A stretch of DNA of 48,781 nucleotides, the filler included, from Jimgerdemannia flammicorona (Eukaryota): the NCBI GenBank assembly GCA_003990765.1. It is 2 parts of 2 records of this genome, joined end to end, with 100 filler letters (N's around TTAATTAATTAA, not from the genome) between each part and the next. Parts side by side here need not be neighbours in the genome. Positions count along the whole stretch, not along the records: positions 1 to 24,343 come from RBNJ01000986.1; 1 more part is not named here. One strand, 5' to 3'. Under the pieces are notes generated by a model, which saw nothing but the letters and a program-made list of their open reading frames with translations, was not told where the DNA came from and searched no databases. Numbering within the stretch: position 1 is the stretch's first letter; each line of letters begins with the position of its first letter. A program made the translations under genes and the position numbers. Shown piece after piece: positions 1,964 through 30,029 of this stretch.

Positions 1964-3100
1964 TTTTAAAGAGTATATATAAGAAAATATCAAGATATAT
2001 ATCTAGTATAGATAGCCTTTCAGAAAAGCTTAAAAAATATTTTACAAATTTTATTCATATTTTTATTTATTTTATTTTATTTTATTTTTTTATAGTTACT
2101 TAGATTTATTTATACCTTTATTATATATCTCTTATATATAATAGAAGATCTTTTTCTCTTTAAATTTCTTATTTATCTATTTATATATTTTTAATATAAA
2201 GTAAATATATTTTTTTATATTTCTCAATCTTTAATATTAGTCTTTTTTAAACTATATATATCAGATTTTTTAATTTTATTTTTATTTTCTTATAAATATT
2301 ATATATATTATTATTTAAGTAAACTATAATGATATTAAAGAAATTATAATTAAAAGAATATAGTTATTTTTAACAGATAGTTGTAGTTTATAAAAATTAA
2401 AAGAGATATTAGTTTGATAATTTATAAAAAAAAAAAAATATAGATAGTAAAATATGAAGTATTTTCTTTATAATTAATTTTTAATATTAAAATTTTATAA
2501 CTGAATCTTTTTTTAGTTTTATTTAAAAAGTTGTTTAGTAAAAGAAATACTATTAACATTACTATAAGTATATTTATTATATATATATATATTTGAGTAG
2601 AGTAATATTATAACAGTTGATCTAAATTAGAAATAATAATTAGAGAATAGATATTTGATTATATATAGTATCTAAATCTAATTCTCAATATAGTATAGTA
2701 TTATATGTAGTTTAGCAGTCACTCAATCTCTCAGTTATATAATTTATATAATTATATAAAAAGTATAGCTATGTGAATCTCTCAGATATAATGATCTCTC
2801 ATCTGTATAAATTTTATAAATATACTAATCTCTTAACTATCCCTTAGACTATAGATAAGATCATCTTTTAAATTCATTTAGCAGACAAATTAAGATTTGA
2901 AAAAAATGATTTTTTGAAATATTGTTTTTCTGTTATATCTCAATTTGTTTAAAAAAAAAATTTTTTTTTTTATAAAATTTTTATCAAAGATAGAATTATT
3001 ATATAAAAAATTATTGGTAATTTTTTTTTAAAAGCTATTATGATTTTAAAAGTTATAAACTTTTTAAATCTTACCTCTAAATATAGATGCAAAACAGTCA
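1850..3100. repeat. Extremely AT-rich, CpG-free degenerate repeat relic
   Basis: TA-rich, almost no CG dinucleotides, (TA)n and poly-A/T runs, no ORFs. Confidence 0.6.
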
Positions 3101-3671
3101 AAGAAATAAGAAATGACTTATAGAAAAAGAAGTCTTAACTTAGCTATTATATAATTAGTAAACTTATAAAATATCTCTAATATCTTAAGTAAATAAATCT
3201 CAGATTAAAATAGTTTAAGTAAAGAGATAAGAAACTAGTAAGTCTGTAGGTAAATATACTTTAGACTCAACTATCTGAGGACTCTGAGAAGTTAAAGAAG
3301 ATCAAGTATTTAAGATAAAAAAAATCTACTATACATACTTCTACTAATATATATCTACTACATTATAACTTAGTGCTCATTGGCTGGTAATTTAAGATAA
3401 ATATCTTACTTTTAAGCTGAATAACAAACAACTACTATCACTCAAATATATACTCAAATTGAACCAGAAAATTTAGACAAGATAGATATAAGACTACTAG
3501 TATTTCATAGATATATATATCTCTGATGAATCAATCATTATCTTCCTTGATAATTTCAAACAATATACTACTATAAAAACTCTATTAGTATAACAATAAG
3601 TAGCTCTAATGCTATTCAGTCTCTGAGAACTAGCAAGAATTACATTTATAGTAGTAACTCATACTGGAAAT
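3100..3671 (+). mobile_element. 5' (gag-proximal) part of degenerate Ty3/gypsy relic A, left of the insertion
   Basis: Same CpG-free, A-rich composition as 12852 onward. Joining the two flanks gives a seamless ...GGAAATGATAATA with AT (or AATG) duplicated. The start coordinate is approximate. Confidence 0.5.
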
Positions 3672-3713
3672 GTAGCTTTCCTTCCAGGCAGGCTACGCAG
3701 TTATCTGGTTCCA
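3672..3713 (+). repeat. 42-bp terminal direct repeat, left copy
   Basis: GTAGCTTTCCTTCCAGGCAGGCTACGCAGTTATCTGGTTCCA, identical to 12810-12851. Confidence 0.97.
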
Positions 3714-4206
3714 TCTGGTCTCTGTTCCTTTTGGCTGTTACGACCATTTCCACCGATCCTTCTTGTTCGTTCCGGAAGTAGAGGGACTTGTCTCCCCGGA
3801 TCACCATTATTTCTTTTGGCCTTAGGTTGTCCATTACGGCCTTGGCTCCGAAGATGAGCGGTTTCGGAAGGACGTCCGGGATCCTTTCTTCTTCCTGTAG
3901 TATTGGGATTCCTCCGTTTACTACTACCCTGGGTTGTTGAAGGGTTTTTCGAACGGCGCTTGTTGCTTTATGCTCCATTGTGTGACTGCGTGTTGAGAAA
4001 TCGTGGTGGATATTGATGTTACCGAAGCGGGCGGTGAGCATATTTATATTCGTTGTTGTGGACCACGTGTTTGTCTGGTGATCCTTCTTCCACATTGAGT
4101 CTTGTATTTCGTCGATTTCCCTTATCAGGTCCGTTACACTGCCGATCGTTTCCTGGTTTTGGAGTTCTTCGCCGATCTCTGCTTCGATCGCGGTTATTTC
4201 TTTCAT
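3672..4206 (-). CDS. N-terminal part of element ORF2 (164 aa plus MEPDNCVACLEGKL), cut by the linearisation point
   Basis: ORF 3646..4206 ends ...RDQMEPDNCVACLEGKL and then runs into flank sequence. The same peptide starts ORF 11563..12852. Its ATG lies 7 nt after the pol-frame TGA at 4214-4216. Confidence 0.85.
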
Positions 4207-4213
4207 GGCAATT

Positions 4214-6760
4214 TCATTTCTCTTTGGCTCCTTCCTTGGCTGCCCGGAAGAAAGTATTCCACCATATTTCTGTTTCCACTTGGTCTACGGCTCCTTTCCA
4301 TGGATTCTCTGGTTGGTGGTTTTCTTTGTCGCTGTCCGATTCTTCGTTATGGACTTGTCCTTTGAATTGCTTCTGGACGCCTTCTCGTCCGTATTATTCT
4401 TCAGACATGAACGTTATCGATGTGTTTGGTGTCCACGTAGGATCTTCTTCCTGTTGTGGGTACCAGGCGGGTTCGTTCCTTGAGCTACTTGGAATCGTTG
4501 TTTCCCATCTTTGAACGTCTTGCTGCCATTCTTGTAGTGGGTTTTTGTTCCTTGATCCTTCCCATGGTCTGGGTTCTTCATTCCAGCTATTTACCATAGC
4601 TTCCTTCTTTTCTTCCCATTCTTGCCATTCTTTTGGTCCGCGGCCGTCTTTGATCGGTTTCTTTCCGTAGGGTTTTGGCCATTTTGGGAGGGTTTGTTTT
4701 TCGTAACCTCCTCTTCTTGCTATCGCTTCTTGCTGCTTGTGCTCGCTTCCTATCTGGAGGAATTCTTTCGAGGTTCCTTGTTCTTCGCAGAGCTTATTCC
4801 GCATTTTTTCGAATGGGGAATTATCTGATCGCCAGTGCGTTCCGATGTGGTGTCGCTCTTTTTCTCCACCTTTTTGTTTGCTCATTTCTTCGTTCTTCTG
4901 GCGGCGCCATTCTTGATGAGCTTCGAGGGCTTCGAATTCTCGGTTTCTTTCGGCGATTCTTTCCCTGGCCTCTTGCACTTCTTTTGGCGTCGGCGGGTAA
5001 TATGTATCGCTATCTTGGTCCGAGTCGTATTCGTTGGCTGGCCAGAGGAGTTCTTGTTGCTGGTTATCCATGCTGATGATGTTGATACTGACTTCTTGTG
5101 TTAGCTCGTTGTCCTTTATATCTTTTGGAAAGGGATCAGGTCTCCCCCCCAGGGCAACAGCCCCAGCGCGTGATAGGTAGTCTGAGAATCCGTTCTCAGA
5201 TCCCTTAATCCATTTGAACGACACATTAAGTCCTTGTAGGAAGAAGATCATCCTTCTTTCTGCCCCTGTTGGTGGTTCCGTGGAGGCCTTGCTTAGGTAT
5301 GTGTCTGGATTTGTTACCTTTGTAAGCGCTTGGTTGTCAGTGTAGATTATAACCTCCTGATTGGTCATCCAGGGGTTGGTCACCAGTGCATAATATACGG
5401 CGTATAGCTCCGCCTTTTGTTGGTTGAACAGTTCTGGCTGTTCTTTTGCCCTTTTGAACTGAACCAATTTTGGTAGGTTTCGGCTTCCTAGTCCGAGTAG
5501 TCTTGGTGGTGTGGTGGCTTGGTAGATTATCCATCCTACGCCATACGGGGATGCATCCGTATTGACTCGTATTGGTTCTCCTTTTTCCTGTAGCTCCAGT
5601 GTTGCGTGGTTGACGAGGGCTCGTTTGATCTTTTCGAAGGCTACGCATTGTTCATTTTTCCAAAGCTCTTCCAGCTTTCCTTTCTTGTTGACGATGTTAT
5701 TCTTGCATTCCATTAGTGGCGCGATTGTCTTCGTATAGTTCGGGATATAGTGGGCGAAATATCCGAATTTTCCGATGATGGCTTGAAGGTCTTCCACCTT
5801 GGCTGGTTTCGGTAGTCCTAGTAGCGACTGGACCCTTCCTGGGTCAATGTGGATGCCCTGCGTTGTCACCCTGGATCCCAGCAGTGATATTTCCTTCTGT
5901 CTTAGTGCCATTTTCTTTGGTGCGAGCTTGATGCAATGTTTTCGACATATTTTGAGGAATTCTTCCAGTGAGTAGTCGTGTTGTTGAACGGTTTTTCCGC
6001 CTCCTGCGGTGTCGTCAATGTACGATGGTGCTATCAGTTTCTTCAGCACCAACGGCTCGAATGCGTACTTCATGAATCCTTGCCATGCCCGAGGTGCGTT
6101 GTGGATGCCAAACAACATTCTCGAGGGTCTTAAGTATCTTCCGTTAAATGTCCTAACTACAAGAAGGTTCGCATGATGTGGTTCGACTGCGATATGGTGG
6201 AACGCCTTGGTCACATCTGCTTGCCAAATGTACCCTCCTTGTGAAATCTCCAAGAGTGCTTTTTGAACTTCTTGGCTTGTAGGCATTTCAAACGGTATAA
6301 GCTCCGTGCTTTGGTTGTATCCTCGATAGTCGATCACCCATCGGGGCTTGGCTTCTTTTTCCTGAGTTTCCCCTGTGGTTAACTCATCGTGCCCGCTGAA
6401 TACTAGGAACTCCTGTGCGGCCGCGAATGATTGCTGTACTTCTTCGAACCACCCGGCTTTGATCATTTCGTCATGTTCTAGTATTCTTGCTTTATAGTGT
6501 TCTTCGTGTTGCGGATTTCTTTGTGGTAACCTACCCGGGCAGTGGTAGGGTTTTCCGCCGATCTTCAGTCTTGCGATATAGGGGGGCGTTGTCGTGATGG
6601 TTTGGATGTCTTTGATGTCGTTTGCAAATACGTCCTTGTACTGGCATAGTATCTTTTCTAATTGTTTGTCTGGTGGCTTCTTTGCGAACTTGCTTAGGAA
6701 CATTTCGTCGCTCATTTGTTCGCATGATGAGCGACTTACTGAAAACTCGGCTTGAACGTC
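4214..6760 (-). CDS. pol: Reverse transcriptase-RNase H (Ty3/gypsy-caulimovirid type) with a charged C-terminal extension and no integrase
   Basis: RT motifs RWVIDYRGYN, DVTKAFHHI, MLFGIHNAP, YIDD (6011-6022), LLG. RNase H motifs TDAS, ELYAV, TDNQAL, ENGFSDYLSR. A TAA at 4394-4396 is followed by about 59 more sense codons to TGA 4214. No HHCC or DDE motif. Confidence 0.93.
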
Positions 6761-8300
6761 AGGTGCTGGTACAGGCCGGGTTCCCTGCTGGGGATTTGTT
6801 CCCAGTTTCTTCGATATTGTTCCTTGTCTTTCTCCACTGTGGTTTCCTTCGTGGGGTATTCGGTTCGTAGGGTCGCTTCTCGTTCTTGTGCGACTTGGTC
6901 TCCTACTTCTTCCACCTCAAACTTTGACTTGCTTTGTCGGTGCCATGGTTTGGCCTCCGGGGCGCGGAACTTGATTCCTGTTCGCCCTTTTTCTGGGGTT
7001 ATTACTTCCAGGCGGTTTTCGACGAAGTCAATGCTTCCGATGATTACTAGTGCCATTTTGTTGCTTCGGTCAACTTCTCCGTTGTTGAGTCTGAGCTTCC
7101 ATCCTTCAATCCCTTTTAGCGCAATCTTCTTCCAGCTGGCTCCTGTTAGTGCTGTTCCGACGGTTGTTTTGCTAGCAGCTAGGTTTATGGTTATCAGGCA
7201 GTTCTGTCCTGAACCATCTTGCTTGCGCAGTCTTCCGTCCCAGTACAATCCTTCTTTGTCTGGGTTGCCGTGTGCCATAGCCACTTGTCCCCATGGGTTG
7301 TTTCCTCGTAACGCTATGTTTCGTGGTGTGGCTGGTAGTGGAGGTGCAGCACGTTGGTAACTTGCTGGTAATTGTGTCTGTCTTCCTGCAGACGTCTGGG
7401 CCTTCCTGCGGGTTTCTACCGGCTGAAGGTCTTGCTCCTCTTCTAACGGTTGTACTTCGACTGGGATATTCCAGCATCCCTTGTCGTTGTCGTGCTCCCA
7501 ATATTCTCCTATTGGGGTAAGAGAGAGCTGTTCTCCTAGGTTCTGGCATTGGTATCCTGCCTTGGGCCTGGGAGAGGTCCTGTAATCGTGTTCCTTTCCC
7601 TTGTGTTCTTGAATTTTTGCTCTATCTTCTGCGAAGTTTGCCGGGATTTCAACTCCCTTTCGTAGGATTTTTCTTTCGCTGTAGAGGATGTCCCACCCGT
7701 TTTCTTGTAGGAATCTGTTGCCTAGTAGGAACGATGCGCTTCCTGCTCCTTTTAGTACTGTTAAGTTTATCTGGTAGTTCTGTTCCCCTACCTTAAATTT
7801 AACTTGGTGGATTCTTCCTACTACTCCTATCGGGGTTCCTCCAGCTCCTAGGAATCTTCTGTATTCTGGCTTTAGCTGATCCTTGAGTTGTAATCTCTCC
7901 AGGATTTCTTCGCTTATCACATTTTCATCGGCGGCGGTGTCGACTTTGGCTCTGAATACTTCCTGGTTTCGCTTAAGGGTCACCCATATTTGACCTATGG
8001 GGCCTGTTGCTGTGCGTTTTCCCAGTAGGTCGATCTCCGGTGCTTGCTCGATGACTTCAAGGTAGTTGTCTGATTGGTATTCCCAATCTTCGTCGCTTGA
8101 AGGTTCGTTTATCTCGTGGATTTCTTCACCTAGACGTTCTTCTTCTCCTTCGCTGTCGACTTCGATTTCATATGTTCTTTTTCCTACGCGTTTTGTTCTT
8201 CCTGTCCTGAAGAACCTTCGCTTTCTTCCGAAGGAGACCTTTCGTGTACCTTTCTTGTGGAACGGTTTATCTTCCTGAGGGTCGTCCACGTCCATTGGTC
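6736..8300 (-). CDS. Gag C-terminus, retropepsin-like aspartic protease and spacer domain
   Basis: PMDVD motif, an R/K-rich tract, AKVDTAADENVIS (DTA at 7933-7941), flap GAGG and FLLGNRFL, all in ORF 6736..8550. Confidence 0.85.
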
Positions 8301-9286
8301 TTCGTCCTCCTTTATCTCGCCAAATGCTTCCACCGGCATTTCTTGTACTTCTTCTGCTGCTGGTCCGGATTTTTGGTATCTTGTTCTGGCCCAGTAGCTT
8401 CTGTTGTAATTCGTTCGGATGGTACCTTCTTGTACTGCTGCAACGAATTTTCCTTTGAAGATGTTTAAGCAGACATCTAGAACTTGTGCTGCTGTTGTTG
8501 CTGGTGTTGTTGTGAGCATTTGGTTTTGTCGGTAATGATATGGTAACCATTCCGGCATTTTTCCTAAGATAAACTTTTCTTGCGTTGTAAAGGTGTCTTT
8601 TGTTAAGTCCGCGATCCTCATTCGAAGCTCCAGTTGCGTGTTGAAATGCTGCATCTCGTGGATGCTTTGTGCGTTGGACCTTGGGAAGTTATAGAGTTCT
8701 TCCCTTATGATTGTGATTTGTTCTGCTCCGAAGAACTTCTCGTATATTAGGAGTCTTAGTCCTTTTCGTGTTCCTACGGCGTCTGTGTAGGTCATCCAGC
8801 TTAATGGTTTTTCGTGGTCTGCCATATTTTTGCTGAGAACGTCGTTTACGAGCCATGCTCTTGGAACCTGGAACCGACCGCTGCTACTAGTCTGTAGCTG
8901 TATGATTTTGCTGGGTCGTCTTTGTTTTTCGGATCTGCCCAGTATCCGACTAGGTATCCTGCAGCTAGGTATGCGAGGTCCACTTGTCCCACAAATGCTG
9001 GGACTTCCATTGGATTTCCGGTGAACGGTTTTATGTTGTCGAAGATTTTTATGCTTCCCGGAAGCGTCATGTTGACTGGTCCTTCGATGTCTACCGGTGT
9101 GTCGTCTGGTGGTGGTTCATGCGGAGGATGTTGTGGGTTCTTTTTATGATCATCCTCATCCTCGAAGTTCGAGAATATTGCTCCTGCAATCTTCTCCTTT
9201 TGCTGCTGGTTTAGTGCCGCCCATGAGCTTTTGTTGACATTTGGTAGGAATGCTCCTACGAAGTTTATGGAATCTCGGGGCGTCAT
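8184..9286 (-). CDS. gag: Retrotransposon-type capsid (Gag) domain, split by a frame break near 8860
   Basis: IKPFTGNPMEVPAFVGQVD (ORF 8846..9391) continues in the -1 frame as RAWLVN...LIYEKFFG...REELYNF...SIHEMQHFNTQL...KFILGKMP (ORF 8184..8825). This matches the general Ty3-type capsid pattern. Confidence 0.7.
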
Positions 9287-11185
9287 GTTTGTAGTCGTTG
9301 TAGAATTGTTGTGATGGGTTGTACTGTGGTGTTGGTCTCGACTGTCTCCTTCTTCTGATGCCGAAGGCAATGTCGTACATGCTCCATCCATACTGTTGAG
9401 CCCAATCGCTTCCTGGTAGGTCTCCTGTTTCCCAGTCGTTTGGGAAGTTTGGAATTCCTCCTATTCCATGGTCCTTCTGATAACAGGACATTGTGGCGAT
9501 TATGATGTCCAGAATCCTCATGTACATGTCGTCTCTTGGGTAGTTTTTTCCACCATTTGGTGAGTCTACTGAGTCTGAGGCTTGCCATGATAGGGATGCT
9601 TGGAGAAATGTTACTGTTTCTCCTCCGTTGTCGGGGTCATCCCATTGCCATTGGATTCTGGGTTCCTGCCTTCTCGGACTTGGAGATCTTAGTCTTGTGT
9701 TTCGGTTGTTTGGTGGTCTTGGGGGTTCTCCTCCAGCTCCTACTGCCGTTCTTCTTGGTTGTGGTGGTGTTGTTCTGGTCAACCTTGCTAGGATCCTTTC
9801 AGCTTCGCTTGCCGTGTCTCTTGTCCCTTCAACTCTTCTGAGCAGTTCTTCATTTTCTAGTCTCGCTCTTTCTCTGCTTGCTTGGAGTTGTTGCGCGGCG
9901 TTATTATCCAGTCTTTGCCTGACTCTTCCTACTGGAAGTGCGTTTCTTTGTGTTTCTTCCGTTACTGGTGCAAACGGGTTTGGCTGAATCCGCGATGCTC
10001 TGGGTGTTTCTTGCATTATTTCTTCCCATGGATTTGCCTGTCGGTTTGTTACTGTTGCAACATTCGTTCTCAGTGGTTGCCTTCTGGTTTCTTCCAGTGC
10101 TGATCTAATTTGTTGCGCTGTTCTGGCAATTATTCCAGGGTTTGCCGCTTTTCTTTGCCCTAATCTTGCTGTTGCTGCGATTATATCTTCCGCCGTTGTT
10201 ATTCTGTTTCTCCCTATTTCCTGCAGTTCTTCTACTGCTTGGGAGTTTGGTGAGAGCATTCTTGGTATAGCTGTCACCGTGGATGATCCTGATTCTTGTG
10301 GTCTGGGCCCGGCGGGAGGTTGTATTTTGAAGTAGATTTCTGGTACTTCTTCTGCTCCAGTCCATTCGCCGTTTGTTTTCTTTAGCCATGCTGTCAGTCT
10401 GTTTGCTTGTGATATTCTTTCCTTTGGCCAGTCGAATTTTCCGAGTATGTATTCGAAAATTTTTATCTGTAGGGAGGTCGCTGATCCTCCTCCGGCTGCC
10501 GATATTGCGTGTATTATTCTTAACGGTATCTCCTTGAAGTGCCCTCCTAGTTGGTTTGCTACGAAGATGGCGTAGTCATATTTGATGGGCGGCCTTCTTT
10601 TGACTATTGTTTTCACCTTTGCATATCCTTCCGAGAGGAAGTCTGATACTTCTTCGGGGATATCTTCGAACTTGTTGTTTCCTTCTTCGAAGGACTTTCT
10701 CCAGAACGACGTCCATCTTGATGTTCCGACCATGTGTCTGGTCCTAAGCGTGGTCTCGCTTGGGGCATCTACCGTTTCTCCATCTGACTGATGTGTTGGT
10801 ATTGGTTCTCCATGGATCGTGTCTTCTGCTTCTTGTAGTCGGGTTCTTGTAAGCTCCGGCTCTGGTGGTTCCATTGGGCTGACTGGTTCTGAGGTATTAA
10901 ACCAGTCTTCCATCTCCGGTTGCTGGTATGTTGCTACCTCGATCCTTGGCCTTCTTCCCGAGTGGGTGGTCATACTTTCTGACCTCTTTGAACGTTGGGA
11001 GCGTTCTTCTCGGCTGCTTCGGCGGCTTCTGACTTCTTCCTCAAGCTCTTGGATCCGAGCTTGTTGTTGGCGGACTAGGCGTTCCATCCGCTGGTCGGTA
11101 TTTCGTCCGTCCTGCTGACGGGTTCAGGGCTGGCATTGGTTTCGTCATTAACAATGCTTTGGATGATTCTTCCAACTTGCGACAT
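9156..11185 (-). CDS. Large N-terminal ORF of the element, function unknown (coiled coils, R/P/Q-rich)
   Basis: 643-aa ORF 9156..11087. A likely true start ATG at 11185 (AAAAATG, MSQVGRIIQS) is in another frame and overlaps it. Confidence 0.7.
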
Positions 11186-11278
11186 TTTTCTTTTACTTGT
11201 TGAGTAAACCTTTGATCCTCCGGACCGATTCAATTCAGTATCTAGCGGCTAGGCCAGGGGTAAGTCTTATGCTTCCAC

Positions 11279-11567
11279 TGAAAATTGACTCTTGAAGTCT
11301 CGAGGCTAAGCTTTAAGTACACCGGTCAACGTGTGCGCGAAGCAGCTGCGTAGGTAGTGTAGCGTAAAAGCTATTGTGGGGTTTATTGGGTTTGTAAAAG
11401 GGTGTGGAATTCGAGTTCCAATACACCTGTATTTATACATTTGTTTCGACCTCTTGGTCCTGACTATTTGCAAGAGATATTGACAAATTTCGTCGATTCC
11501 TTCTTTGCAGCACATTTTGCCTTGTGACTTTCTTTTCGCCTAGTTATTCGGCGAAATGACCGTCACA
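11279..11567 (-). promoter_or_regulatory. Single LTR-like control region (U3-R-U5-like)
   Basis: On the minus strand, in order: purine tract GGGGAAGTGGGGAA (11585-11572), TGTGAC (11567), TATAAATA (11437-11430), hairpin GGTGT-ATT-GGAA..TTCC-ACACC (11427-11401), AATAAA (11387-11382), ...TTTTCA (11279), then G-TGG (candidate PBS, 11277). It is the only long non-coding stretch of the element. Confidence 0.7.
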
Positions 11568-12851
11568 TTGATTCCCCACTTCCCCAGATACTTGATCCCC
11601 ATTCTGCCGGATCATCTGGGCTTACCAAAATCGCTTGTTGTTCTTCTTCGGATGGTACTCCTCCGGTTCCTTGGATCAGGAGATTCCAGTAGAGCTCTTG
11701 TTCTCCGATTAGTTTTCTTAGGATTGGGATATCGTGAGCTGCTATCCTTGTGATCATGCTTGCCGTTAGTCCTTTGACTTGACTGATGAATTCTTCTCCC
11801 ATTCCTTCCAGGAGTCGGTGGCATGACTTGATTTTGGCCTTGATCCAATCCTTCTGCGTTTTGGTCATCTTTTCTTTCTTGACTTCCTCGATTTGTCTGG
11901 AGACCTTCTTCATGATTTCCTTCATTGCGAACATTCCGGCGCTTTCTTCGTTTTCCCCGTTACTCTGGAAGTCCGTTTTCTTGTTTTGCCAGATCTTTCC
12001 TAGTTCCAAGAAGCATTTGATTGCGCTGACGCTTGTTTCGTCTGCTCTTTTTTCGAAGTTTAGTGCCCTCATTACTAGGTAGGCTTCTTGATCAGCAAAT
12101 TCTCCGTTTGCTAGGTCTTGCGTCGTGATTTCTAACCATCCTGCGGCGTGCCATACTCGGATATTTTTGAAGCAGTTCAGGACTCTTACTGCACTTGTTC
12201 CTAGCTTTGCTTCTGTGGCCAGTAGTTCCTCCATGCTCGGTAGTTCTTCTACCATATTCCCTATGGTTACCGGTGTTTCTTGGATTTCTACCGGCTGCGG
12301 TTGCAGTTGCTCTTCAATTTCCTCGTTTGTCCAGATTCTTACTTCAGGGATTTCTTCCGGTTCTTCCTCGCTGTCGATATCTGCATCGCTAGCGACCGGT
12401 TGTGCTCGTAGGTTTCTTGAGATCCTTCTTGCTCTGGTTCTTCGTGCTCCGACTGCTCGTCGTATTTCCCTTAGCTCGTTGACTTGGTTTTGGAGATTTT
12501 GCGCCAGTTCCGCATCTTCCCTTGCTTCTCTTTCCAAGTCGTTGTAGCTGTTTTGAATCATTACTGCGTTCCATTCCAACGTTTTGATTCTTGCTTCCAT
12601 GTGGGCTAACATCGCTTCCTTGGGTATCTCCATTACCGGTTCGTAGCAGTATAGGCATACTCCTCCGATGGTTTCCTCGATCGGGAGTCGGATGCTATTG
12701 TGTTCTTCTTCCCCGATTTTGCGTTTCTTGTGATTTGCATATATCATACCTAGGCACCTGGTATGGATACTTTTGTCGCAATGTGGGCAGTTGAAGAGTG
12801 AGTCTTCCGGTAGCTTTCCTTCCAGGCAGGCTACGCAGTTATCTGGTTCCA
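11563..12851 (-). CDS. C-terminal 429 aa of element ORF2: PHD-type (C4HC3) zinc finger, coiled coil, acidic linker and helical domain
   Basis: CVAC-x12-CPHC-x4-H-x2-C-x32-CLYC. No ATG remains at this end (TTG at 12852 arises from the flank). The frame is continuous with 4206->3715 on circularisation. Confidence 0.85.
12810..12851 (+). repeat. 42-bp terminal direct repeat, right copy
   Basis: Identical to 3672-3713. Confidence 0.97.
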
Positions 12852-15800
12852 ATGATAATACTATAATACTAGTAGTACAGAAGACCTGATTGCAAACTAT
12901 CTACTATATAGATAAAATCAAGCAGATCCTGAAGGATTAACTCAATAATATCTATCAAGAAATGAATAAAGACCCAAATATCTTTTATATCTGAATCTAC
13001 TATTAGATAATTTTGACTAATTATACTAATGTTATCAAAAATCAAGTAACTAAAACAATCTTTATAAAAGGAATTCATCTAGAGATAGTTATGGTAATTT
13101 AATCAATACTAATAGTTCTAAACTTAATATAGAAGGTAACTTATGCTCAGTGATATTAGATAGTCAGATATCCTCAAGACTATATAATAGAGAGAGTTAC
13201 AAAAGTCAGAATTGAAGTATTTAAAGTAACTAGTATAATTTCTACAACTATAATCAATTAAAATACATCTTAACTAAAGACTACAGAGTAATAGAGAAAT
13301 AGTGATCCTATAGAGAAACTTGTTAAGAAGTTTGCTAAAATAACTACTTATCTGAGAAATATAATAAAGGAAATCAGAAAAAGAGATTGTTGTCCAGTTC
13401 AGAAGTTTGCTACTACTATAGACAAGAAGAGAGAAATCTACTATATATATAGAGAAGAAGGTCACTACTCTTATAAAAATATAAGTGAGACTAAGTGTAA
13501 GGTCCAGCTAAGTAATACTATATATCAGAAATTGTAAATAGATCAATACTATTACTTTTAAAGAGATTGGAGATTCAAAAAAAGAAGAAAAATAGAAAGC
13601 TTATTCAGCCCTCATCTTTAAAAAGAATGTCTACCAGAAACCCTATAAGAGGCCACCAGGAAGATCTAAGAAGAAAGTAGTAGAACAGTCTGTGAAAAAA
13701 TAAATAGAAGTATCTATAAAAATTAAAATCATAGCTGAGAAAATAGATCAAGATATAGAGCTTAAATAAGCAGTTAAAGATCATCTAAGGCAATACTTCT
13801 ATCAGTAAAGAGAAAAAGAAGAAAAAGCTACAAAAGAGTAAAATCTTTAAGTATAATATCTTCAAGGATTTTAGCTAGTAAAAAGTCAATATAATCTTTA
13901 AATAGTTAGTAGAAATTTCTATCTTCAGATAATAAAAGAGACTGAGACTTACAGAAACAGTTAAGAATCAAGAGTAGAAGATAGTTGAGACTAATAATAT
14001 ATAGAATAATTCAGATAAAGAAAGTGAAAAAAATAACTACAAGATCTCTATCTATCTATCTATCAGATTGAAGATAGGATCTTTGAAGCTATCATTGATA
14101 TAAGAGCAGAAGAATGCTTTCTCAGTAAAAAAGCTATAGATTGTCTAGATTGGAAAATTGAAGCTATGAAATTAGTATTCATTACAGTAGATGATACAAG
14201 AGCTACCTCTCTAAGAAAGATTCGGGATATCTCTATTAAGTTTAAAGGAGCAATTATTCTAGTAAATATGATTATTATAAATACTATTAATTATAACATC
14301 CTCATTGATAATCAGTAGCTTCATAATGCTAAGATTATAATTGACATAAACTCCCAGAAGATACAGATTATCTATTAAGGACAAAAGATGTAAATTCTCA
14401 TCAATATCAATAAAGAAGTACTCTCTGAAATAGAGAAAGAAGACAGTAAGCAAGAAGAAGCCTATATGATAACTACTTAAAAGAAAAAGAAGAAGATTGG
14501 ATAGATTAGTAAAAAAGATTGATTACTAAAGAATATACTCTATTAGGAGTATATCTTTATAAAATTCAAATATACTATATGAAGTATATAGATGAGTACT
14601 ATTAATATATTACTAAGATCTATAAGATTCTTTATAAGAAGAAGAAAAGAAGACAGAAGTAGTAAGAAAAGGAAGATCAGAAGAATGAACTACCAGCCCT
14701 CCTAGAGGATAGTGATAATAAAGAATAAATCAAGATCAAGATTTATTTCTATATAGTTCTATTAGAATATAAGTCAGAAAATATAGGAATAGATATTACT
14801 ATTCCCAAGAACTATATTGAAATACTCAAGATAAGAAATAGCCTAGCTAAAAGGAAATTTTTTATTAAAGGAGAAGTTATTAATTCTGATTATATTAGAG
14901 AAATCTTACTTATTACTAGAAACCACAACTCTACAATTCTATTTACAGTTAAGAAGAAAGACTGATTTATATAAATGCTGATTTTTTTAATACTATAACT
15001 CAGGATTTTGGAAGTCAAGAAGCTGGAGGAAATGGAAAGAGAAAGGAGAGGATTTGGATCTACAAAAAGAGAAGTTTTTGACAGTACTAAAATTACTAAA
15101 TTAGATCACAAAAAGGATAAAATCACAGTCAAGTATAGCTATACTATTAGAAATAAATTTCTATTCAAAAAAAAACTCAAGAAGTTACTATATGAATTTG
15201 AGAATATTCTTGCTACTGATTTTAAGAATATCAAAGAAAAGACACCATACTATTATTATGATATAGATATAGAAGATACTGAGCCAATCTATCAAAGAAT
15301 AAGACCAATTCTACTAGTATATTATAAATAGCTCAGAGGAAATCAAGCAGATAGAAGAAGCTAATATCATTAAGGAGACTATTAGTTCTTAGTTATTACT
15401 AATCATACTAGTTTCAAAAAAAGAAAGCAAGCTAGGAGAATTTACTTCAAAGCTCTATACAGACTATAGAAAACTGAATGAAGTTATTAAGAAGAATTAC
15501 TAATTACTATCTCTTATTAGTGATATTCTAGTGATATTAAAAGATAAAGCATAATATTACACCATCTTAGATTTATACTCAGGATTCTATCAAATTAGCC
15601 TTATTAGAGAAGTTAGCAAAAAGCAGCCTTCATTATCTCAGATAGAACTTATGTCTATTTATGAATACTATTTAGAATATATAATTCCCAGTAAGTTTCT
15701 AGAGAATAATAAACAAGATTATCTATAATAAGATAACTAAGAAATATCTAAACTATATTTATTGAATCCTACAGAAACTAAAAGATCATGATCTGTTCAT

Positions 15801-18300
15801 CAAGCCAAAAAAGTATAAGTTCAGCAAAATTGAGATCTTCTACCTTGAGCATATCATTAATTAAAATAGAACTCACACAGACCATATTAAGATTCAAGTA
15901 GTTGAAGTCTCTCTAAGACTTACTATAGTTATTAAAACTCAAGCCTTTATAGGACTTACTACTTATTATATATAGAAGATTTATTAAAGAGTTCTGGTCT
16001 CATTTATGAATTATTCAAGAAAGATACTAAGTTCTAATAGACTGATAGATAATAATAAGTATTTAAATATCTCATGGTTTATTTGACTCAGATACTCATC
16101 TTAAGAAGATCTGACTGGTCTTAAGAATTTATTCTATAGACAGATACAAGCTCAATTAGACTAGAAGTTATTTTTATAAAAAAAAAAAATAAGATCAAAT
16201 ATATGATTATATATCTCAGCTAAAGAACTCATAGAGAAGAAAGAGAATATAAATTCTACAAGCTAAAGTATCTCACAATTATCTAGACTATAAAAAATTT
16301 TCACTACTATCTTACTAGAAGATACTTCACTATTCTAACTAATTACCCAGCTCTTATCTAGTTATTGACCACTAGTCAACTTAAAGAAATATTTATCAAA
16401 TAGATTATAAAACTATAAGCCTATAATGCAACTGTCATATATTACTTAGGAAGAAATAATATTAATATAGATATACTCTCACAGATATTCTAAAATGAAT
16501 AAGAAATTTTACTATAGAATTATTATCTATTTTTTTTTTTTTTCTTTTAAAGTCACTTGGACTTCCATTTATTACTACTCAATCTATAAATAATACAACA
16601 TATATACCCACAATCCCTCAGCCAATGCCCCTCAGATCCCTCTCTCTACTTGTTATTTTTTTCTGCTGAAGGATAATTCAGTCACCTACCACCTGAACTC
16701 TCCTGCCACTCTTCTTACAAATACAATTTACTAGATTCTGATGGCCCCCCCTATCTGGTCCCCACCCTCTCCACTATCCATTCAAAATGTCTAGTATTAA
16801 CCATTCTCAATGTGCTATCTTAGCTTCAATTGCAATCTGCCAGCCCTTTTCAAAGACATAAAGTCAATGACTGACCATCTCTATCCAAATTGCCAGGGTC
16901 TATCCTAAGGTCAATCATTTATCTCCCACTCTACCCACTAATCTTTGCCTGAGGTCTTCCCATCTCCCTCCTTCCCCACCCATAGAATTATCATCTATCT
17001 GAGACAGTAAATGATCTGAAAGAATGAATATAAACAATTATTAATAGAAGCTGAAAATAATTTGAAACTGATAGAGAAATACTAAAGAAAGAAAAACTAC
17101 TAGTTATATCAAAGTATAAGAAGAAATAAGTAATGAAATTAGTATATAAACTTGGCTATCTAAGAGGAATAAATATCTATAATAAAACAAGAAGAATAAT
17201 GTGATGGTCTAAAATAGAAGAAGATATCAAATAATTTATCAAGATCTATAATAAATATTAGAAACAGAAGTAAGATTAGTGAAACCAGATACCAGAATTA
17301 GTAGATATAGAATCAGTACTATTTGATCACATTATAATAGATATAATTAGCCTACTACTCTTAATATTGACTAGTAACTAATATATTATTATCATTATAG
17401 ACCTCTTTATGAAATAAATAGAAGTAAGATCTCTCAAAGAAGTCAATATACAGTTAATTGCTAATTTTGTTTATAGAGAAATCATCTGTCAATTTAAGAC
17501 TCCAAAGTAAGTAACAATAGATAGAAGAATAGAATTTATAAACTAGCTCTTTGAAGTTTTATATGAGAAGTATAAGATTTAGTATATTTAAACTACAGCC
17601 TATTATTTACAGAGAAATGAACAGACTAAAAGAACTAATAAGATACTTAAAAATATTATTACTAAGATCTGTAATAACTATAAAAATTAGGACTATTATC
17701 TATCAATAGTATTATCTACTCTTTAGGATATATAATTATAAAGTATCTATTTTATCTCTTAAAAATTGTTATTTAGAGAAAAAAGTTCTAAAAAAACTCT
17801 ACTATCTAATAGAGATACAATATAGAAATATTTAGATACTGAGATATAGAGATTGTACCAATAAGAAAGAGGGCTAATGATTATATAATCAAGCAATAGA
17901 ATAATATATAGAAAATATATAAGTTTCTAGAGATTATCAAGATAAGAGATAAAGTTTTAATATATTAGAGTATACATAGTAGAAGCTTTATAGTCATAAA
18001 AACTAAAGCTCAATTAAGAAAGATCTCATATTATACAAAATATAAAAGAAACTACTTTTAACTATGAAAACTAATAGGTACAATTATCCTCACTACTATT
18101 TACTAAAACTGACTTAAGAAGTACTATAGCTAATCAATAAAGTACTGCTCTAGCCCTCAAGATTATAAGTATTACTTAGTAAACTATAAAAAGACAATAA
18201 TATTCTACTAAGCTATCAGTTATAGAGGAATTCTTTAAAATATCAAAGTATTATATAGACTCATCTATTATGAACTTTATACTTTAGAGTCTACTAATAT
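12852..18300 (+). mobile_element. Degenerate Ty3/gypsy relic A (gag-PR-dUTPase-RT-RNaseH-integrase)
   Basis: Transition-decayed motifs. PR: AIIDIRAEECFLS (~14090). dUTPase: GEVINSDY..RGFGST (14870-15063). RT: LDLYSGFYQI (~15570). RNase H: TDTSS (~16140). Integrase: IDLFMK*IE, TIDRRIEF, TAYYLQRNEQTKRTN (17400-17650). The end coordinate is approximate. Confidence 0.85.
16531..16981 (-). mobile_element. 5'-truncated LINE 3' end with poly(A) and 17-bp TSD, nested in relic A
   Basis: Poly-T followed by AGTCACTTGGACTTCCATTTATTAC, resembling AGTCGCTTGGACTGCCCTTTATTAC at ~24137. Flanked by ATAGAATTATTATCTAT (16514-16530) and ATAGAATTATCATCTAT (16982-16998). Confidence 0.85.
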
Positions 18301-18835
18301 TATACTAAGTTTTATGAGTACTTTAAGTTGAGAAAATTACTAAATAAAAAAAATATAATCAAAAAAGAATAGATTATAGAGTACTAGATATCCTATATTT
18401 AGATCACTATAGTCAAGCAGATCTATAAACTATTTAAGAATAACTATAACAGTTCTAGTTTCTTTAAGAGAAAGTAGCTAAATCTAAAAGTTCTAGTTGG
18501 CCTAAAGTAGCTTGAAAAGATACTTAAAGGATTTCTGGGAGAAAATATTCTTTGCTTTATTTAGACAAAGAAGAGAAATGCCAAGAAATAGGTTCTCAGC
18601 AAAGCTGACTAATACTATTCTACAATGTTCTGAAAGGTTCCATGATTAGCTAAGATAAGATACTTAGTACTAAAAAAAGACAAAAATATTTTAGTAGTGT
18701 CTGGGTACCAAGAGAAGGTTTTTAAGCAAGTAGAGAGTAGCAGAACATAGTAGAATATTCAAGAAATGATAAGAAAAAACTAACTAAAAGATGCAAAAAT
18801 GTACTAAGACTAAATATGATTGTGAAATTATTACA

Positions 18836-21800
18836 TCTCTCTCTCTTTAAGAACCAATGTCCTTATTGAGTTCTTAGGTAGCATAAGACTAGATATACTT
18901 AACCAAAATTTCTCAAACTTGTATTAGTATATTGGTGGGAATTGGCCATCCTTGTATAGGACAGAGGGCCTATTATCAGACTAATCAACTGGAAGTAGTT
19001 TGAACTCAGCTAGTAGCTTCATTTTAGTAGACTTCTTATTCATTAAATATTCTGCTAGTTCCAGGGTCTCAAAGTAAACTTCCAATATATAAGGCATTGA
19101 TCATTACTATAGATTGTCAATAATCTAAGGAAGTCACTACAGAGATTGGGTAATGTATTTTGCCTTAAAGTCTTAAACTAGATCTTGAGAGTTCTTGAGG
19201 TTGACCAGTGGTTCCCAGGTAGTATTATATTTAGGGTAACCCATCTACTTGACTAGGTATTCAGGACAGTGGTAGCAGATTTATTTGTCAAGAATTTTCT
19301 CAGCTTCATACTCAATATGATCTTCAATAATCACAGAGATAGAGGGCTTAGAAATTTGACTAAGGTAGGGCAGTAACTAGTTCCAGGTCTTGAGATGTGA
19401 TATATAAAAGACCAGGTATACTCTCATGGTTTCAGATAGCTTAAGACAGTAGAAGAATGCAGAGACTTATTCAGTAATATTGAAAGGTCTAATATACTTA
19501 GATTGAAACTTGTTCAAAAGATGGTTGACTTGAGATTGTATCTTGAGGTTCTCAGTAGACAGTAGGACTTGATCTCTAATAATGTAAGTGACATTACAGT
19601 GATTCTTATTAATATACTTAACTTGATGCTATTGAGCCTTCTGAAGATTTATGGTAGCAATCTTGAGTAGTTTGTCTATTTTATCTGTAAAGTTCTTAGT
19701 GGTTGAGACTTATATTTGACTGCTTTTCTTGAAAGAGAATAGACTTATAGGGGTCTTGGAATCTTGACCATAGAGTAATTGGAAAGGGAAAGACCAGTAG
19801 ATAATTAGATAGTATTGTTGTATATAAACTTCACATAAATCAGGTAGTAGTTCCAATTATCTTGCTCATAAGAAATATAGTTTCTAAGCATTTATTCTAG
19901 AGTTCTGTTCATGTGCTCAGTTTGTCCATCAGTTTGTGGGTGAAAGGTGATAGACATAGCCAATTGGGTTCCCAGAGTCTTGAAGAGAGTTTGTCAGAAG
20001 TAACTGGTGAACTTGAGGTCATAATTGCTGACAATTACTCATGATAGGCCATAGTGATAGAAGATGGACTTAAAGAAGATTCTTGCAATCTCAGATGTAG
20101 TAGCATTGGTAGTAGTTGATTCAGTAACCATAGTCTTGGTCAGGTGGTCAATGAATATGATGATAGCATTAGTATCAGATTGAGTTTGTAGTAGTTGAGT
20201 TATAAAGTCTATGGTAACTTGCTCAAATTTTTTAAGAGGAATTGATAGTAGTTATAGTAAACTAGCTAGTGCTTAGATGGTAGACTTGTTATGCTGACAT
20301 AGATCATAGCTGGCAATATAGTTCTTGATTTCCTTGACCATACTTAGCCAATAGTAGTGATATTGAATGTTCTTAATAGTCTTCTTAATTTCCAGATAAC
20401 TGGTAAGAGGGAAGTCATAGTGTTCTTATAAAACCTTGTAGTATAGATTTATATTTTCAGATAGATAAACTTGATCTTGATGATAGATCAGATTGTTCTC
20501 AACAGTATATATCCTTGAGCTTTGTTCAAGAAAACTCTAGTGGTAACTATGTTTTCTTTATAAGCTTGTCTGATTTGGTCTAAGAATTCTGATGCCAAGG
20601 TAACCTGTATGATTGTGGTGAGGTCTAGGCATCTTGATAAGACATTTGGTATAATAAGTATCTTGCTAGGCTTGTAGATGATTGTTGGGTTGAAGGTTTG
20701 AAGCTTGAGACTCTACTTGGCTTATAGATGTGATAGAGTAGGTTGGGTGTTAATATACTTAAGAGATTGATGATCAGTGATAACATCAAACTCAATATCT
20801 TCTAAATAGCATTACTAGTAGTCTAGTGTATGTATTATTTCCAGTAGTTTCTTCTCATAAGTGGCTAGCTTTTATTTAGCTAGGGTCAACTTGTGGGACT
20901 CAAAAGCAATAGGATGATGTTTTTTGCCATCACTTTGTGATAGGACTGCTCCAATGGCAAAATTCAATACATCAGTAGTGACTATAAATTTTAAGCCTTA
21001 ATCTGCATTATACAGAACTAGAGTATAGATCAGACAGTTTTTGAGTTCTTGAAAGGCTTGTTGACAGAAGAGGTCCCAGGTATAGAATACATAGTAGTCT
21101 GAGTGTAGGTTCTTCCTTATGAGGTTAGTCAGTGGCTTAATAATGCCAGAGAAGTTTCTGATAAAGTAGCAGTAGTAGTCAGCTAGACCAAGGAAGGATC
21201 AGAGTTCTGTGAGATTTGACAGAATAAGCTATTCTTTAATTGCTTCTATCTTGTATGAATCTACTTGAATTCCTTGTCCAGAGACAATATAGCCAAGGTA
21301 TTCAACTTGTTTCTTGAAGAATTCACACTTCTTGAGCTTAGTATAAAGCTTGTGTTTTCACAGGATCTCCAGGACTATTCAAATGTATTTGAGATATTCT
21401 TTTTTAGTTGCACTAAAGATCCGGATATCATCAAGATATACCAACAGAAAAATAAATAATTGGTCCTTGAATATCTTATTCATCAGAGTCTGAAATATGG
21501 CAGATGTATTGGTGAGATCAAATACTAAGACCAGGAATTCATAGAGTCCAAAGGGGATTATAAATGCAGTCTTGGGAATGTCTTCTGGCTTGATTCAAAT
21601 TTGGTGATATCCTGACATAAGATCTAACTTAGTGAAGTACTTGGCATTCTTATGAGTATCAAAGATTTGATCAATTAAGAGTAGTGAATAGCAGTTCTTA
21701 ACAATGAGTTTATTGAGTACATAGTAGTATATATATATTTGCAAGATGCTATCCTTCTTCTTGATAAATAAGACTGGTGAGCCATAAGGAGATTTGCTTG

Positions 21801-21990
21801 GCTGAATGGCTCCTCATATAAGTAGTTCTTCTAGTTCTTTCTTGACTACTTCAATTTTAAGTAGTGATATGTAGTACATATGTTTCTTAGGTAGTACAGC
21901 TCCTGGAGTCAGTTTGATTTTATGATCAACTTCTCATATAGGTGGTAGATCAGGTAGCTTGTCTAGAAAGACATCCTTGAATTCTTCTAT
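18836..21990 (-). mobile_element. Degenerate chromovirus (Ty3/gypsy) pol: RT-RNaseH-integrase-chromodomain, 5'-truncated
   Basis: SPYGSPVLFIKKKD (~21780), LVYLDDI (~21430), FHPQTDGQTE (~19930), chromodomain EYEAEKILDK..EYLVK*MGYP..TWEP..NL (19200-19315). PPT-like AAAGAGAGAGAGA followed by TGTAAT at 18835. Confidence 0.9.
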
Positions 21991-22029
21991 AGTGTACAGT
22001 ACCTTAAATCAACCATATGTTATACAAAA

Positions 22030-24343: not shown

Positions 24344-24443
24344 NNNNNNNNNNNNNNNNNNNNNNNNNNNNNNNNNNNNNNNNNNNNTTAATTAATTAAN
24401 NNNNNNNNNNNNNNNNNNNNNNNNNNNNNNNNNNNNNNNNNNN
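24344..24443. other. Artificial 100-nt gap spacer (N44-TTAATTAATTAA-N44)
   Basis: A six-frame stop linker centred in Ns. Confidence 0.95.
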
Positions 24444-28070: not shown

Positions 28071-28143
28071 ATTGAAGAAATATTTCAACAAAGACCCCAA
28101 TCTATAATTCCATACTCATCTCATCTCCCACCAGATCCAAGCA

Positions 28144-29994: not shown

Positions 29995-30029
29995 ACCAGT
30001 TCAATCATTGCCATCTATGTTGCTAGTCG

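What the first reader, a model, noticed from the sequence alone, without database searches (positions are those of the whole stretch)
3672..12851. Integrated circular, integrase-less reverse-transcribing element: candidate fungal pararetrovirus-like system
Seen: a 9138-bp unit with capsid-like Gag, aspartic protease, RT and RNase H. It has no integrase or tyrosine recombinase, no paired LTRs, one internal control region, and its ends fall inside a coding sequence. Known: PR-RT-RH without integrase on a ~7-10 kb circle with one TATA/poly(A) region is the Caulimoviridae plan. Those viruses are described from plants and integrate only by accident at permuted positions. Inference: this is an endogenised copy of an episomal circular retroelement of a probable fungus. 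It lacks a visible movement protein and CCHC knuckle, so it is not an ordinary caulimovirid.
Basis: partly seen in the sequence, partly recalled or inferred. Interest (0 to 1): 0.95.

Follow-up and report, generated by a model that had tools for sequence, protein, structure and literature searches.

The report
Integrase-less, circularly permuted fungal retroelement
A 9.1-kb reverse-transcribing element in the fungus Jimgerdemannia flammicorona has no integrase and lies in the chromosome opened inside one of its own genes, so it likely came from a circular DNA form, as plant pararetroviruses do.

Summary
The observation mostly holds. On the minus strand, 12851→3672, lies a 9138-bp unit bounded by an exact 42-bp direct repeat. 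It encodes an aspartic protease, RT and RNase H. It has one ~440-bp non-coding region with TATAAATA and AATAAA, no second LTR and no target-site duplication. Both ends lie inside one ORF that closes to 619 aa when the unit is circularised. A paralog gene model (P0002) reads across that junction. No integrase or tyrosine recombinase was found in 47 six-frame ORFs or in 7 paralog models. Where Ty3/gypsy elements carry integrase, Pol has a long extension with a PHD-like zinc finger and a coiled coil. "Capsid-like Gag" was not confirmed.

The host is Jimgerdemannia flammicorona (Endogonales). The family has at least 7 gene models at 72–100% identity. Differences between copies fall mainly on third codon positions. 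The RT sits on a long branch among Ty3/gypsy-type RTs. A sister position to caulimovirids is neither supported nor rejected.

The window copy is slightly decayed and cannot make a full-length RNA as it stands.

Best reading: an integrase-less Ty3/gypsy-derived element, circle-derived and end-joined into the chromosome. An episomal, pararetrovirus-like life cycle is plausible but unproven, because the borders of other copies could not be seen.

The parts
12810..12851 (-). Upstream copy of the exact 42-bp terminal direct repeat. It lies at the start of the PHD-like finger coding sequence (…EPDNCVACLEGKL).
3672..3713 (-). Downstream copy of the 42-bp repeat. It ends the 212-aa ORF. The flank follows with no target-site duplication of 3 bp or more and no microhomology.
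11566..12849 (-). 3' half of the junction ORF (428 aa). It has a C4HC3 PHD-like finger (12837-12646), a long predicted helix or coiled coil, an acidic linker and a helical C-terminal part. It occupies the place of integrase at the end of Pol. Stop codon at 11565-11563.
   Evidence: Pfam PHD E 0.005, 17.3 bits, below cut-off; regex; PDB PHD fingers at E 1.4-2.9 only; AF2 pLDDT 47, all helical; strong codon-usage signal in this frame; P0002 68% identical over 212 aa
11088..11565 (-). The only non-coding region, an LTR-like control region. Features: purine run GAAAAGAAAG at 11537-11528, TATAAATA at 11437-11430, AATAAA at 11387-11382, TGG-starting primer-binding-site candidates at 11277 and 11256, and a 36-codon upstream ORF from ATG 11185.
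   Evidence: read directly; no coding signal; leader fold z = -0.5
9159..11087 (-). ORF1 (643 aa from its first ATG), function unknown. No family, no homologue, no confident fold.
   Evidence: coding signal
8187..9460 (-). Gag-position coding stretch in two frames: 9460-8849, then 9116-8187, with a frame change near 8890. Capsid identity is not confirmed.
   Evidence: the P0178 model starts at 8825
6739..8688 (-). Protease ORF (650 aa). The retropepsin domain is at about 7989-7705, with active-site stretch VDTAAD at 7941. It is followed by 320 aa of unknown function.
   Evidence: gag-asp_proteas 1e-9, Asp_protease_2 1.2e-7; (nothing in the flanking parts)
4397..6916 (-). RT-RNase H ORF (840 aa). 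RT is at about 6352-5870 (YIDD at 6022) and RNase H at about 5662-5198. A ~230-aa charged tail follows. It ends at a TAA (4396-4394) that is private to this copy.
   Evidence: PDB Ty3 RT 4ol8 2.4e-18 and CaMV 8r0s 5.8e-15; the stop is read through in P0002, P0178, P0179 and an X2 contig
3714..4284 (-). 5' half of the junction ORF (the 212-aa ORF). In paralogs it is continuous with the RT ORF. The window copy changes frame near 4215-4202.
12798..12911 (+). Plus-strand GT..AG joint (GTGAGT…TATAG) in contigs of both runs. It joins element sequence to the left flank across the border at 12851. Two more plus-strand GT..AG joints lie at 12077-12173 and 12239-12333.

Best explanation
This is a slightly decayed chromosomal copy of an integrase-less reverse-transcribing element. 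It is related to Ty3/gypsy (order Ortervirales), and the family has so far been seen only in Jimgerdemannia flammicorona.

Shown:
- One 9138-bp unit is almost entirely coding on one strand. The order is ORF1, a Gag-position ORF, protease, then RT-RNase H.
- In place of integrase there is a Pol extension of about 850 aa: a charged tail, a ~150-aa domain, a PHD-like finger, a coiled coil and a helical domain.
- There is a single LTR-like region with a TATA box and a poly(A) signal about 50 nt apart.
- The copy is circularly permuted. It is opened inside the PHD-finger codons, carries a 42-bp terminal duplication, and has no target-site duplication.

Inferred:
- The element is transcribed from its single promoter into a terminally redundant RNA.
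- That RNA is reverse-transcribed into a circular or open-circular DNA, the equivalent of a 1-LTR circle.
- It has no dedicated integration step, and copies reach the chromosome by end joining.
- The 42-bp duplication is what a circle opened at two nicks 42 nt apart would leave after fill-in. One such case would be a plus-strand discontinuity with a 42-nt flap.
- As integrated, the copy separates the promoter-distal part of Pol from the rest and cannot give a full-length RNA. Only recombination between the 42-bp repeats could restore the circle.
- The PHD-like module may tether the DNA or the particle to chromatin.
For: - Anatomy.
- No integrase or recombinase in 47 of 47 six-frame ORFs of 70 aa or more.
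- The custom IN HMM recognised 141 of 177 session proteins. It found nothing in the element (best E 1.5) and nothing in 0 of 7 Jimgerdemannia models at E<=10.
- In paralogs Pol runs RT, tail, the 212-aa domain and the 445-aa ORF with no integrase between them (P0002, P0178, P0179).
- Junction continuity is seen in P0002.
- The borders are blunt, with at most 2 bp shared and no microhomology.
- Both borders are present in contigs of two runs.
- The family is multi-copy: 7 gene models at 72-100% identity on separate contigs.
- Differences between copies favour third codon positions. The counts are 16 of 23 in the protease ORF and 8 of 13 in the 445-aa ORF, from the 40 rows shown of 71. The combined probability is 4e-5.
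- The RT stem branch is 2.6-2.9 substitutions per site, as long as the caulimovirid stem at 2.5.
Against: - Only this one copy's borders were seen. No DNA of paralogs could be fetched, so two-LTR copies or a fixed opening site cannot be excluded.
- Seven or more copies in two assemblies is also what an ordinary retrotransposon would give.
- ORF1 and the Pol extension have no recognised fold. Both AF2 models had pLDDT below 50, so a new kind of integration enzyme could hide there.
- No circle junction (a "goes back" joint) was listed. Cover was thin and 48 rows were not shown.
- No capsid was recognised.
- The protease active site reads D-T-A rather than the usual D-T/S-G. That consensus is recalled, not tested here.
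- The purine content before the repeat (15 of 19) is not notable on a purine-rich strand.
Confidence: 0.45

Rival explanations
1. This is a retrotransposon with a new, unrecognised integration module. The Pol C-terminal extension (PHD-like finger, coiled coil, helical domain) or ORF1 would replace integrase and insert the DNA actively. The window copy would then be either the normal product or a by-product of that reaction.
For: - The extension sits exactly where integrase sits in Ty3/gypsy Pol and is conserved as an open frame between copies.
- The family is multi-copy.
- The break lies inside this module's own coding sequence, at a short repeat.
Against: - An insertion that splits the element's own Pol and leaves no target duplication is a dead end for a transposon.
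- P0002 has the junction closed, so the site is not opened in every copy.
- No nuclease or recombinase signal was found.
- The AF2 model is all helical but of low confidence.
Confidence: 0.2
2. The family is an LTR retrotransposon whose normal copies carry two LTRs and are inserted by an integrase supplied in trans by another Ty3/gypsy element. The window copy would be an accidental re-insertion of a 1-LTR circle.
For: - The control region has the layout of one LTR: a purine run upstream, TATA, AATAAA, then TGG-starting candidates downstream.
- The nearest RTs in the site-heterogeneous trees are integrase-bearing elements P0114 and P0140.
- LTR-retrotransposon circles are common in fungi (PMC9694575, search listing and abstract only).
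Against: - None of the 7 paralog models has an integrase, and three of them run on past RNase H without one.
- An autonomous-looking 9-kb element that keeps PR, RT and RH under selection yet depends on a foreign integrase is unusual.
- No second LTR copy is present anywhere in the 48.8-kb window.
Confidence: 0.2
3. This is a DIRS/Ngaro-type element with a tyrosine recombinase, which integrates from a closed circle.
For: - A circular origin is implied by the permutation.
- DIRS elements are reported in Mucoromycota. This is recalled and was not checked here.
Against: - No Phage_integrase match in 47 ORFs.
- A protease is present.
- There are no inverted terminal repeats, split direct repeats or internal complementary region, only one 42-bp direct repeat.
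- The flanks do not contain the 42-bp site.
Confidence: 0.04
4. The permuted structure is an assembly artefact or collapse.
For: - The scaffold has gaps at 24344-24443.
- The source assemblies are fragmented. Paralog contigs are 3-15 kb.
Against: - No N lies within 11 kb of the element.
- The right border is spanned by contigs of two runs, and the left border is bridged in both.
- Sequence is continuous through 9.2 kb.
Confidence: 0.03

Closest known systems
Caulimoviridae and endogenous caulimovirids of plants
   Same: - PR-RT-RNase H with no integrase.
- Unit of 7-10 kb with one promoter/poly(A) region.
- Integrated copies permuted and without target duplications.
- CaMV polymerase is a significant match (8r0s, 5.8e-15).
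- The family definition (circular dsDNA of 7.1-9.8 kbp, Ortervirales, no integrase) was taken from abstracts in the listing (PMC7660458, PMC11363490).
   Different: - Fungal host.
- No 30K movement protein, no CCHC coat protein, no Peptidase_A3 match and no P6-like family.
- Free trees place the RT apart from the 3 caulimovirid RTs.
- Pol carries a long PHD-finger extension.
- An episomal form has not been shown.
Ty3/gypsy LTR retrotransposons (Metaviridae)
   Same: - The best structural and sequence matches are Ty3 RT (4ol8, 2.4e-18; 7q5b).
- 19 of the 22 best library hits examined are Ty3/gypsy polyproteins with rve and H2C2.
- Same gene order up to RNase H.
- A retropepsin of the gag-asp_proteas type.
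   Different: - No integrase, no second LTR, no target duplication.
- RT identity is only 23-33%, on a stem branch of ~2.6-2.9 substitutions per site.
- There is an extra 643-aa ORF1.
- Gag is not recognisable.
1-LTR circles / extrachromosomal circular DNA of LTR retroelements
   Same: The unit has the content of a 1-LTR circle: one LTR-like region plus the full internal part.
   Different: Such circles are by-products of elements that also integrate through integrase. Here the family has no integrase at all.
DIRS/Ngaro tyrosine-recombinase retroelements
   Same: A circular intermediate is implied. The RT-RNase H is of the wider Ty3/gypsy-like kind.
   Different: No recombinase, a protease is present, and the terminal repeat architecture is wrong.

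Membership tests
Caulimoviridae | RT-RNase H of the Ortervirales type with no integrase | tested here: met
   Pfam RVT_1, RT_RNaseH_2 and RT_RNaseH. No integrase.
Caulimoviridae | RT groups inside or next to known caulimovirids | tested here: inconclusive
   C20 trees place it apart, beside the IN-bearing P0114 and P0140 (SH-aLRT 89-90). Under LG+G4 the joint clade scores 16.8 lnL higher, p-AU 0.72. Only 3 caulimovirid rows were used, and two long branches are involved.
Caulimoviridae | 30K-type movement protein | tested here: not met
   No such Pfam family in 47 ORFs.
Caulimoviridae | Coat protein with a CCHC zinc knuckle | tested here: not met
   No zf-CCHC by Pfam. No C-x2-C-x4-H-x4-C in the three sense frames.
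Caulimoviridae | Peptidase A3-type protease | tested here: not met
   The protease matches gag-asp_proteas, Asp_protease_2 and Asp_protease, not PF02160.
Caulimoviridae | Episomal open-circular dsDNA with site-specific discontinuities and a tRNA-Met primer site | not testable with these tools
   No genome or raw reads were held and there is no tRNA in the window. A circular origin is only inferred from the permutation.
Metaviridae (Ty3/gypsy) | Integrase (H2C2 zinc finger plus rve core) downstream of RNase H | tested here: not met
Metaviridae (Ty3/gypsy) | Two LTRs and a 4-6-bp target duplication | tested here: not met
   Only a 42-bp repeat inside coding sequence. The flanks share at most 2 bp. 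One copy only was examined.
Metaviridae (Ty3/gypsy) | RT-RNase H similarity | tested here: met
   Ty3 4ol8 at 2.4e-18. The top library hits are Ty3/gypsy.
Metaviridae (Ty3/gypsy) | Recognisable Gag capsid | tested here: inconclusive
   No Pfam hit. hhalign probability below 1%. The fold was of low confidence.
DIRS/Ngaro | Tyrosine recombinase | tested here: not met
   No Phage_integrase in 47 ORFs. Remote forms are not excluded.
DIRS/Ngaro | Inverted or split terminal repeats with an internal complementary region; no protease | tested here: not met
   One search found a single 42-bp direct repeat and no inverted pair within the element longer than 25 nt. A protease is present.

The most novel reading that the evidence does not exclude
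This is the first pararetrovirus-like lineage of fungi. It would be an episomally replicating, capsid-forming, integrase-less member of Ortervirales that arose from a Ty3/gypsy ancestor independently of Caulimoviridae, or as their distant sister. It would be kept in coenocytic hyphae by a PHD-finger chromatin tether on its polymerase, and would leave permuted dead-end copies in the genome by end joining.
Probability: 0.2. Interest if true: 0.92.

Novelty: new variant of a known kind. Interest (0 to 1): 0.7.

Why it matters
- Within Ortervirales, loss of integrase with a switch to an episomal DNA life cycle is known only for the plant Caulimoviridae. My literature searches found no fungal case. 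Searches gave listings and abstracts only. In PMC13308828 the words fungi, fungal, non-plant, algae and "outside plants" each occur 0 times.
- A second, fungal lineage with the same plan would show that this transition happened more than once, or much earlier than thought.
- It would also give a tractable case for how retroelements persist without integration.
- Even on the conservative reading, an autonomous-looking Ty3/gypsy derivative that replaced integrase by a PHD-finger module is a new architecture. It bears on how retroelements pick or hold on to chromatin.

Tried and rejected
- Whole genome: none held.
- Earlier findings: none.
- Homologue searches with ORF1 and the 445-aa ORF returned nothing.
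- Metagenome and viral contig scans with the RT found no confirmed relative.
- A degenerate DNA pattern for the family's YIDDTAGGGK motif gave 0 matches.
- Sequencing runs: no RNA holder was listed. The two holders are Logan contigs of guessed kind. Depth is per contig and cannot give copy number. No circle joint was listed, but 48 piece rows and 9 loose ends were not shown.
- AlphaFold without an alignment gave pLDDT 47 for the 445-aa ORF. It gave 38 for ORF1 plus the Gag-position ORF, read through four stops as X. Both were too poor for a fold search, so none was run.
- ESM Atlas gave only a 0.84 lead to a RING-type Mucoromycota cluster for the 445-aa ORF, and nothing for ORF1.
- PDB by sequence gave PHD fingers at E 1.4-2.9 only, and nothing for ORF1.
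- The Gag profile comparison was negative.
- No X_XXY_YYZ slippery heptamer lies in the three frame-change zones.
- Purine runs of 11 nt or more occur 18 times on the sense strand, so a polypurine tract cannot be picked out.
- The leader RNA fold is unremarkable, z = -0.5.
- There is no tRNA gene in the window to test primer-binding candidates.
- The AU test under the C20 model did not finish on 63 rows. The careful tree did not finish either, so a quick tree was used instead.
- I considered an H-x5-H-x35-C-x2-C reading of the finger as a relic integrase HHCC domain. I dropped it: the spacing exceeds the usual range (recalled), the H2C2 HMM finds nothing, and all eight ligands fit a C4HC3 finger.

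Full report
**What is there.** The feature lies on the minus strand, read from 12851 down to 3672.
- An exact 42-bp direct repeat (3672-3713 = 12810-12851) bounds a 9138-bp unit (blastn E 3e-15).
- The unit has 44-49% G+C and a strongly A-rich sense strand. The flanks have 15-35% G+C.
- No other self-similarity of the region exists anywhere in the 48.8-kb window, so there is no second LTR.

**Coding layout.** A codon-usage frame map trained on the RT core shows coding signal almost throughout. The path is:
- frame 0 from 12851 to ~11570;
- no signal from 11565 to ~11090;
- frame 2 to ~9340 (ORF1);
- frame 1 to ~8900 and frame 2 to ~8400 (the Gag position);
- frame 0 to ~6900 (protease ORF);
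- frame 1 to ~4390 (RT-RNase H and tail);
- frame 0 to 3714.

**Recognised domains.** Pfam finds a retropepsin (gag-asp_proteas 1e-9), RVT_1 (7.2e-13, a weak 49 bits), RT_RNaseH_2 (1.9e-9) and RT_RNaseH (1.9e-6). YIDD and a VDTAAD protease stretch are present.

**Control region.** The only non-coding stretch is 11565-11088. It holds TATAAATA (11437-11430) and AATAAA (11387-11382). A purine run lies upstream, TGG-starting stretches lie downstream, and a 36-codon upstream ORF precedes the ORF1 start.

**Ends in coding sequence.**
- Circularising the unit fuses the 212-aa ORF (4284-3649) and the 445-aa ORF (12900-11563) into one 619-aa frame.
- This is not only a formal possibility. Gene model P0002 from another J. 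flammicorona assembly aligns to 6715-4223, 4209-3703 and then 12744-12142. It therefore reads across the window copy's two ends. It skips about 43 residues that include the repeat.
- The borders are blunt joins. The flanks share at most 2 bp, and there is no microhomology with the sequence that would follow in the circle.
- Public contigs span the right border in two runs. Both runs also join element sequence to the left flank. The structure is therefore not an assembly quirk.

**No integrase or recombinase found.**
- The 7 long ORFs and 40 further six-frame ORFs of 70 aa or more gave no rve, Integrase_H2C2, Phage_integrase, movement-protein, Peptidase_A3 or CCHC match.
It scored nothing in the element with filters off (best E 1.5).
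- It also scored nothing in the 7 Jimgerdemannia models at E<=10.
- Three of those models (P0002, P0178, P0179) run on past RNase H. They show what follows instead: a ~230-aa charged tail, the 212-aa-ORF domain and the 445-aa ORF, in one frame.
- The 445-aa ORF begins with a C-x2-C-x13-C-x2-C-x4-H-x2-C-x37-C-x2-C finger. Pfam PHD scores E 0.005, below its cut-off. PDB PHD fingers score only E 1.4-2.9. The Atlas gives a 0.84 lead to a RING-type cluster.
- A long predicted helix follows the finger (low confidence).

**State of this copy.** The window copy has a private TAA at 4396-4394 and a frame change near 4215-4202. P0002, P0178, P0179 and, at the stop codon, an X2 contig are continuous there. 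A further frame change lies near 8890 in the Gag position. As integrated, the promoter lies downstream of the PHD part of Pol, so a full-length RNA cannot be made from this copy.

**Family and relatives.**
- The host label comes from the hits: J. flammicorona proteins at 91, 92 and 72% identity, with further members P0178-P0180.
- Everything else is far. The word-index search gave 24 other hits at 22-26% identity.
- The exhaustive search of 1.84 billion representatives gave 37,249 hits at E<=0.001 but none above 33% identity.
- Of the 22 best hits, 19 are Ty3/gypsy polyproteins with integrase, and many are fused multi-copy models.
- The best solved structures are Ty3 RT (2.4e-18), foamy virus Pol and CaMV polymerase (5.8e-15).
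- Differences in a diverged X2 copy fall on third codon positions in 16 of 23 cases in the protease ORF and 8 of 13 in the 445-aa ORF. These come from the 40 rows shown of 71. The combined probability is 4e-5. Copies therefore descend from a lineage under protein-level selection.

**Phylogeny.**
- With LG+C20 (quick search), the four Jimgerdemannia RTs form a clade on a 2.6-2.9 stem. They sit beside two integrase-bearing metagenomic elements, P0114 and P0140 (SH-aLRT 89-90). They are apart from the three caulimovirid RTs, whose stem is 2.5.
- Under LG+G4 a forced Jimgerdemannia+caulimovirid clade is 16.8 log-likelihood units better than the quick free tree, and it is not rejected (p-AU 0.72).
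- With two such long branches this may be attraction. I treat the position as unresolved.
- No DIRS, Bel/Pao, copia or retrovirus references were available.

**Mechanism.**
- Shown: an integrase-less coding set, a single LTR-like region, a permuted copy with a 42-bp terminal duplication and no target duplication.
- Inferred: transcription from the single promoter past a promoter-proximal poly(A) signal gives a terminally redundant RNA. Reverse transcription yields a circular or open-circular DNA. Chromosomal copies arise by end joining.
- A concatemer fragment could also give unit-plus-overlap. However, an overlap as short as 42 of 9138 bp would then be a 0.5% coincidence. A circle opened at two nicks 42 nt apart predicts it directly.
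- I could not identify the primer sites.

**Comparison and novelty.**
- The plan is that of Caulimoviridae. Abstracts in the listing describe circular 7.1-9.8-kbp genomes, no integrase and a terminally redundant RNA (PMC7660458, PMC11363490, PMC8256270).
- The element fails several defining features of that family and is fungal.
- It also fails the integrase and LTR criteria of Metaviridae and the recombinase and repeat criteria of DIRS.
- Searches for a fungal pararetrovirus or for a PHD finger in this position found nothing relevant. I saw listings and abstracts only, plus one term count in PMC13308828. Supplements were not consulted.
- I rate it a new variant of a known kind. The episomal reading is open, at about 0.2 for the full "fungal pararetrovirus" claim.

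Noticed in passing
window 12077-12173, 12239-12333, 12798-12911 (+): Contigs of the two public runs carry three joints with canonical GT..AG ends on the plus strand (GTAGGC..CAG, GTAGTT..CAG, GTGAGT..TAG). They are antisense to the 445-aa ORF, and the last one runs from the element into the left flank. This looks like a spliced antisense RNA with no convincing ORF. The run kind (RNA) is only guessed by the tool.
   Followed up: partly
window 39981-40088 (-): U6 spliceosomal RNA gene (Rfam RF00026, 75.9 bits, full length).
   Followed up: no
window 41362-42156 (+): ORF with a protein kinase domain (PK_Tyr_Ser-Thr 7e-25). It is the only clearly host-like protein signal found in the window.
   Followed up: no
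window 24444-31700: A block of 49-57% G+C with strong C excess on the plus strand (GC skew -0.4 to -0.55). It has long overlapping ORFs on both strands (618 aa on the minus strand, 447 aa on the plus strand) with no Pfam family. Two 44-N gaps at 24344-24443 sit at its left edge. It may be another unclassified repeat.
   Followed up: no
window 2000-3600 and 12900-23000: The flanks of the element are very AT-rich (15-35% G+C) and almost free of ORFs: 11 ORFs of 75 aa or more between 13.2 and 24.3 kb. They look like decayed repeat or intergenic DNA. The cause of the AT richness was not examined.
   Followed up: no
window 7941-7930 (-): The protease active-site stretch reads D-T-A-A rather than the usual D-T/S-G-A. 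That consensus is recalled, not tested here. The only paralog model covering this ORF (P0178) skips the domain, so it is unknown whether this is a family trait or decay.
   Followed up: partly
window 8650-9043: X1 contigs leave the window sequence at 8650 and 9043, and one joint skips 8673-8998. Some other copy therefore differs by an indel or replacement in the Gag-position region.
   Followed up: no
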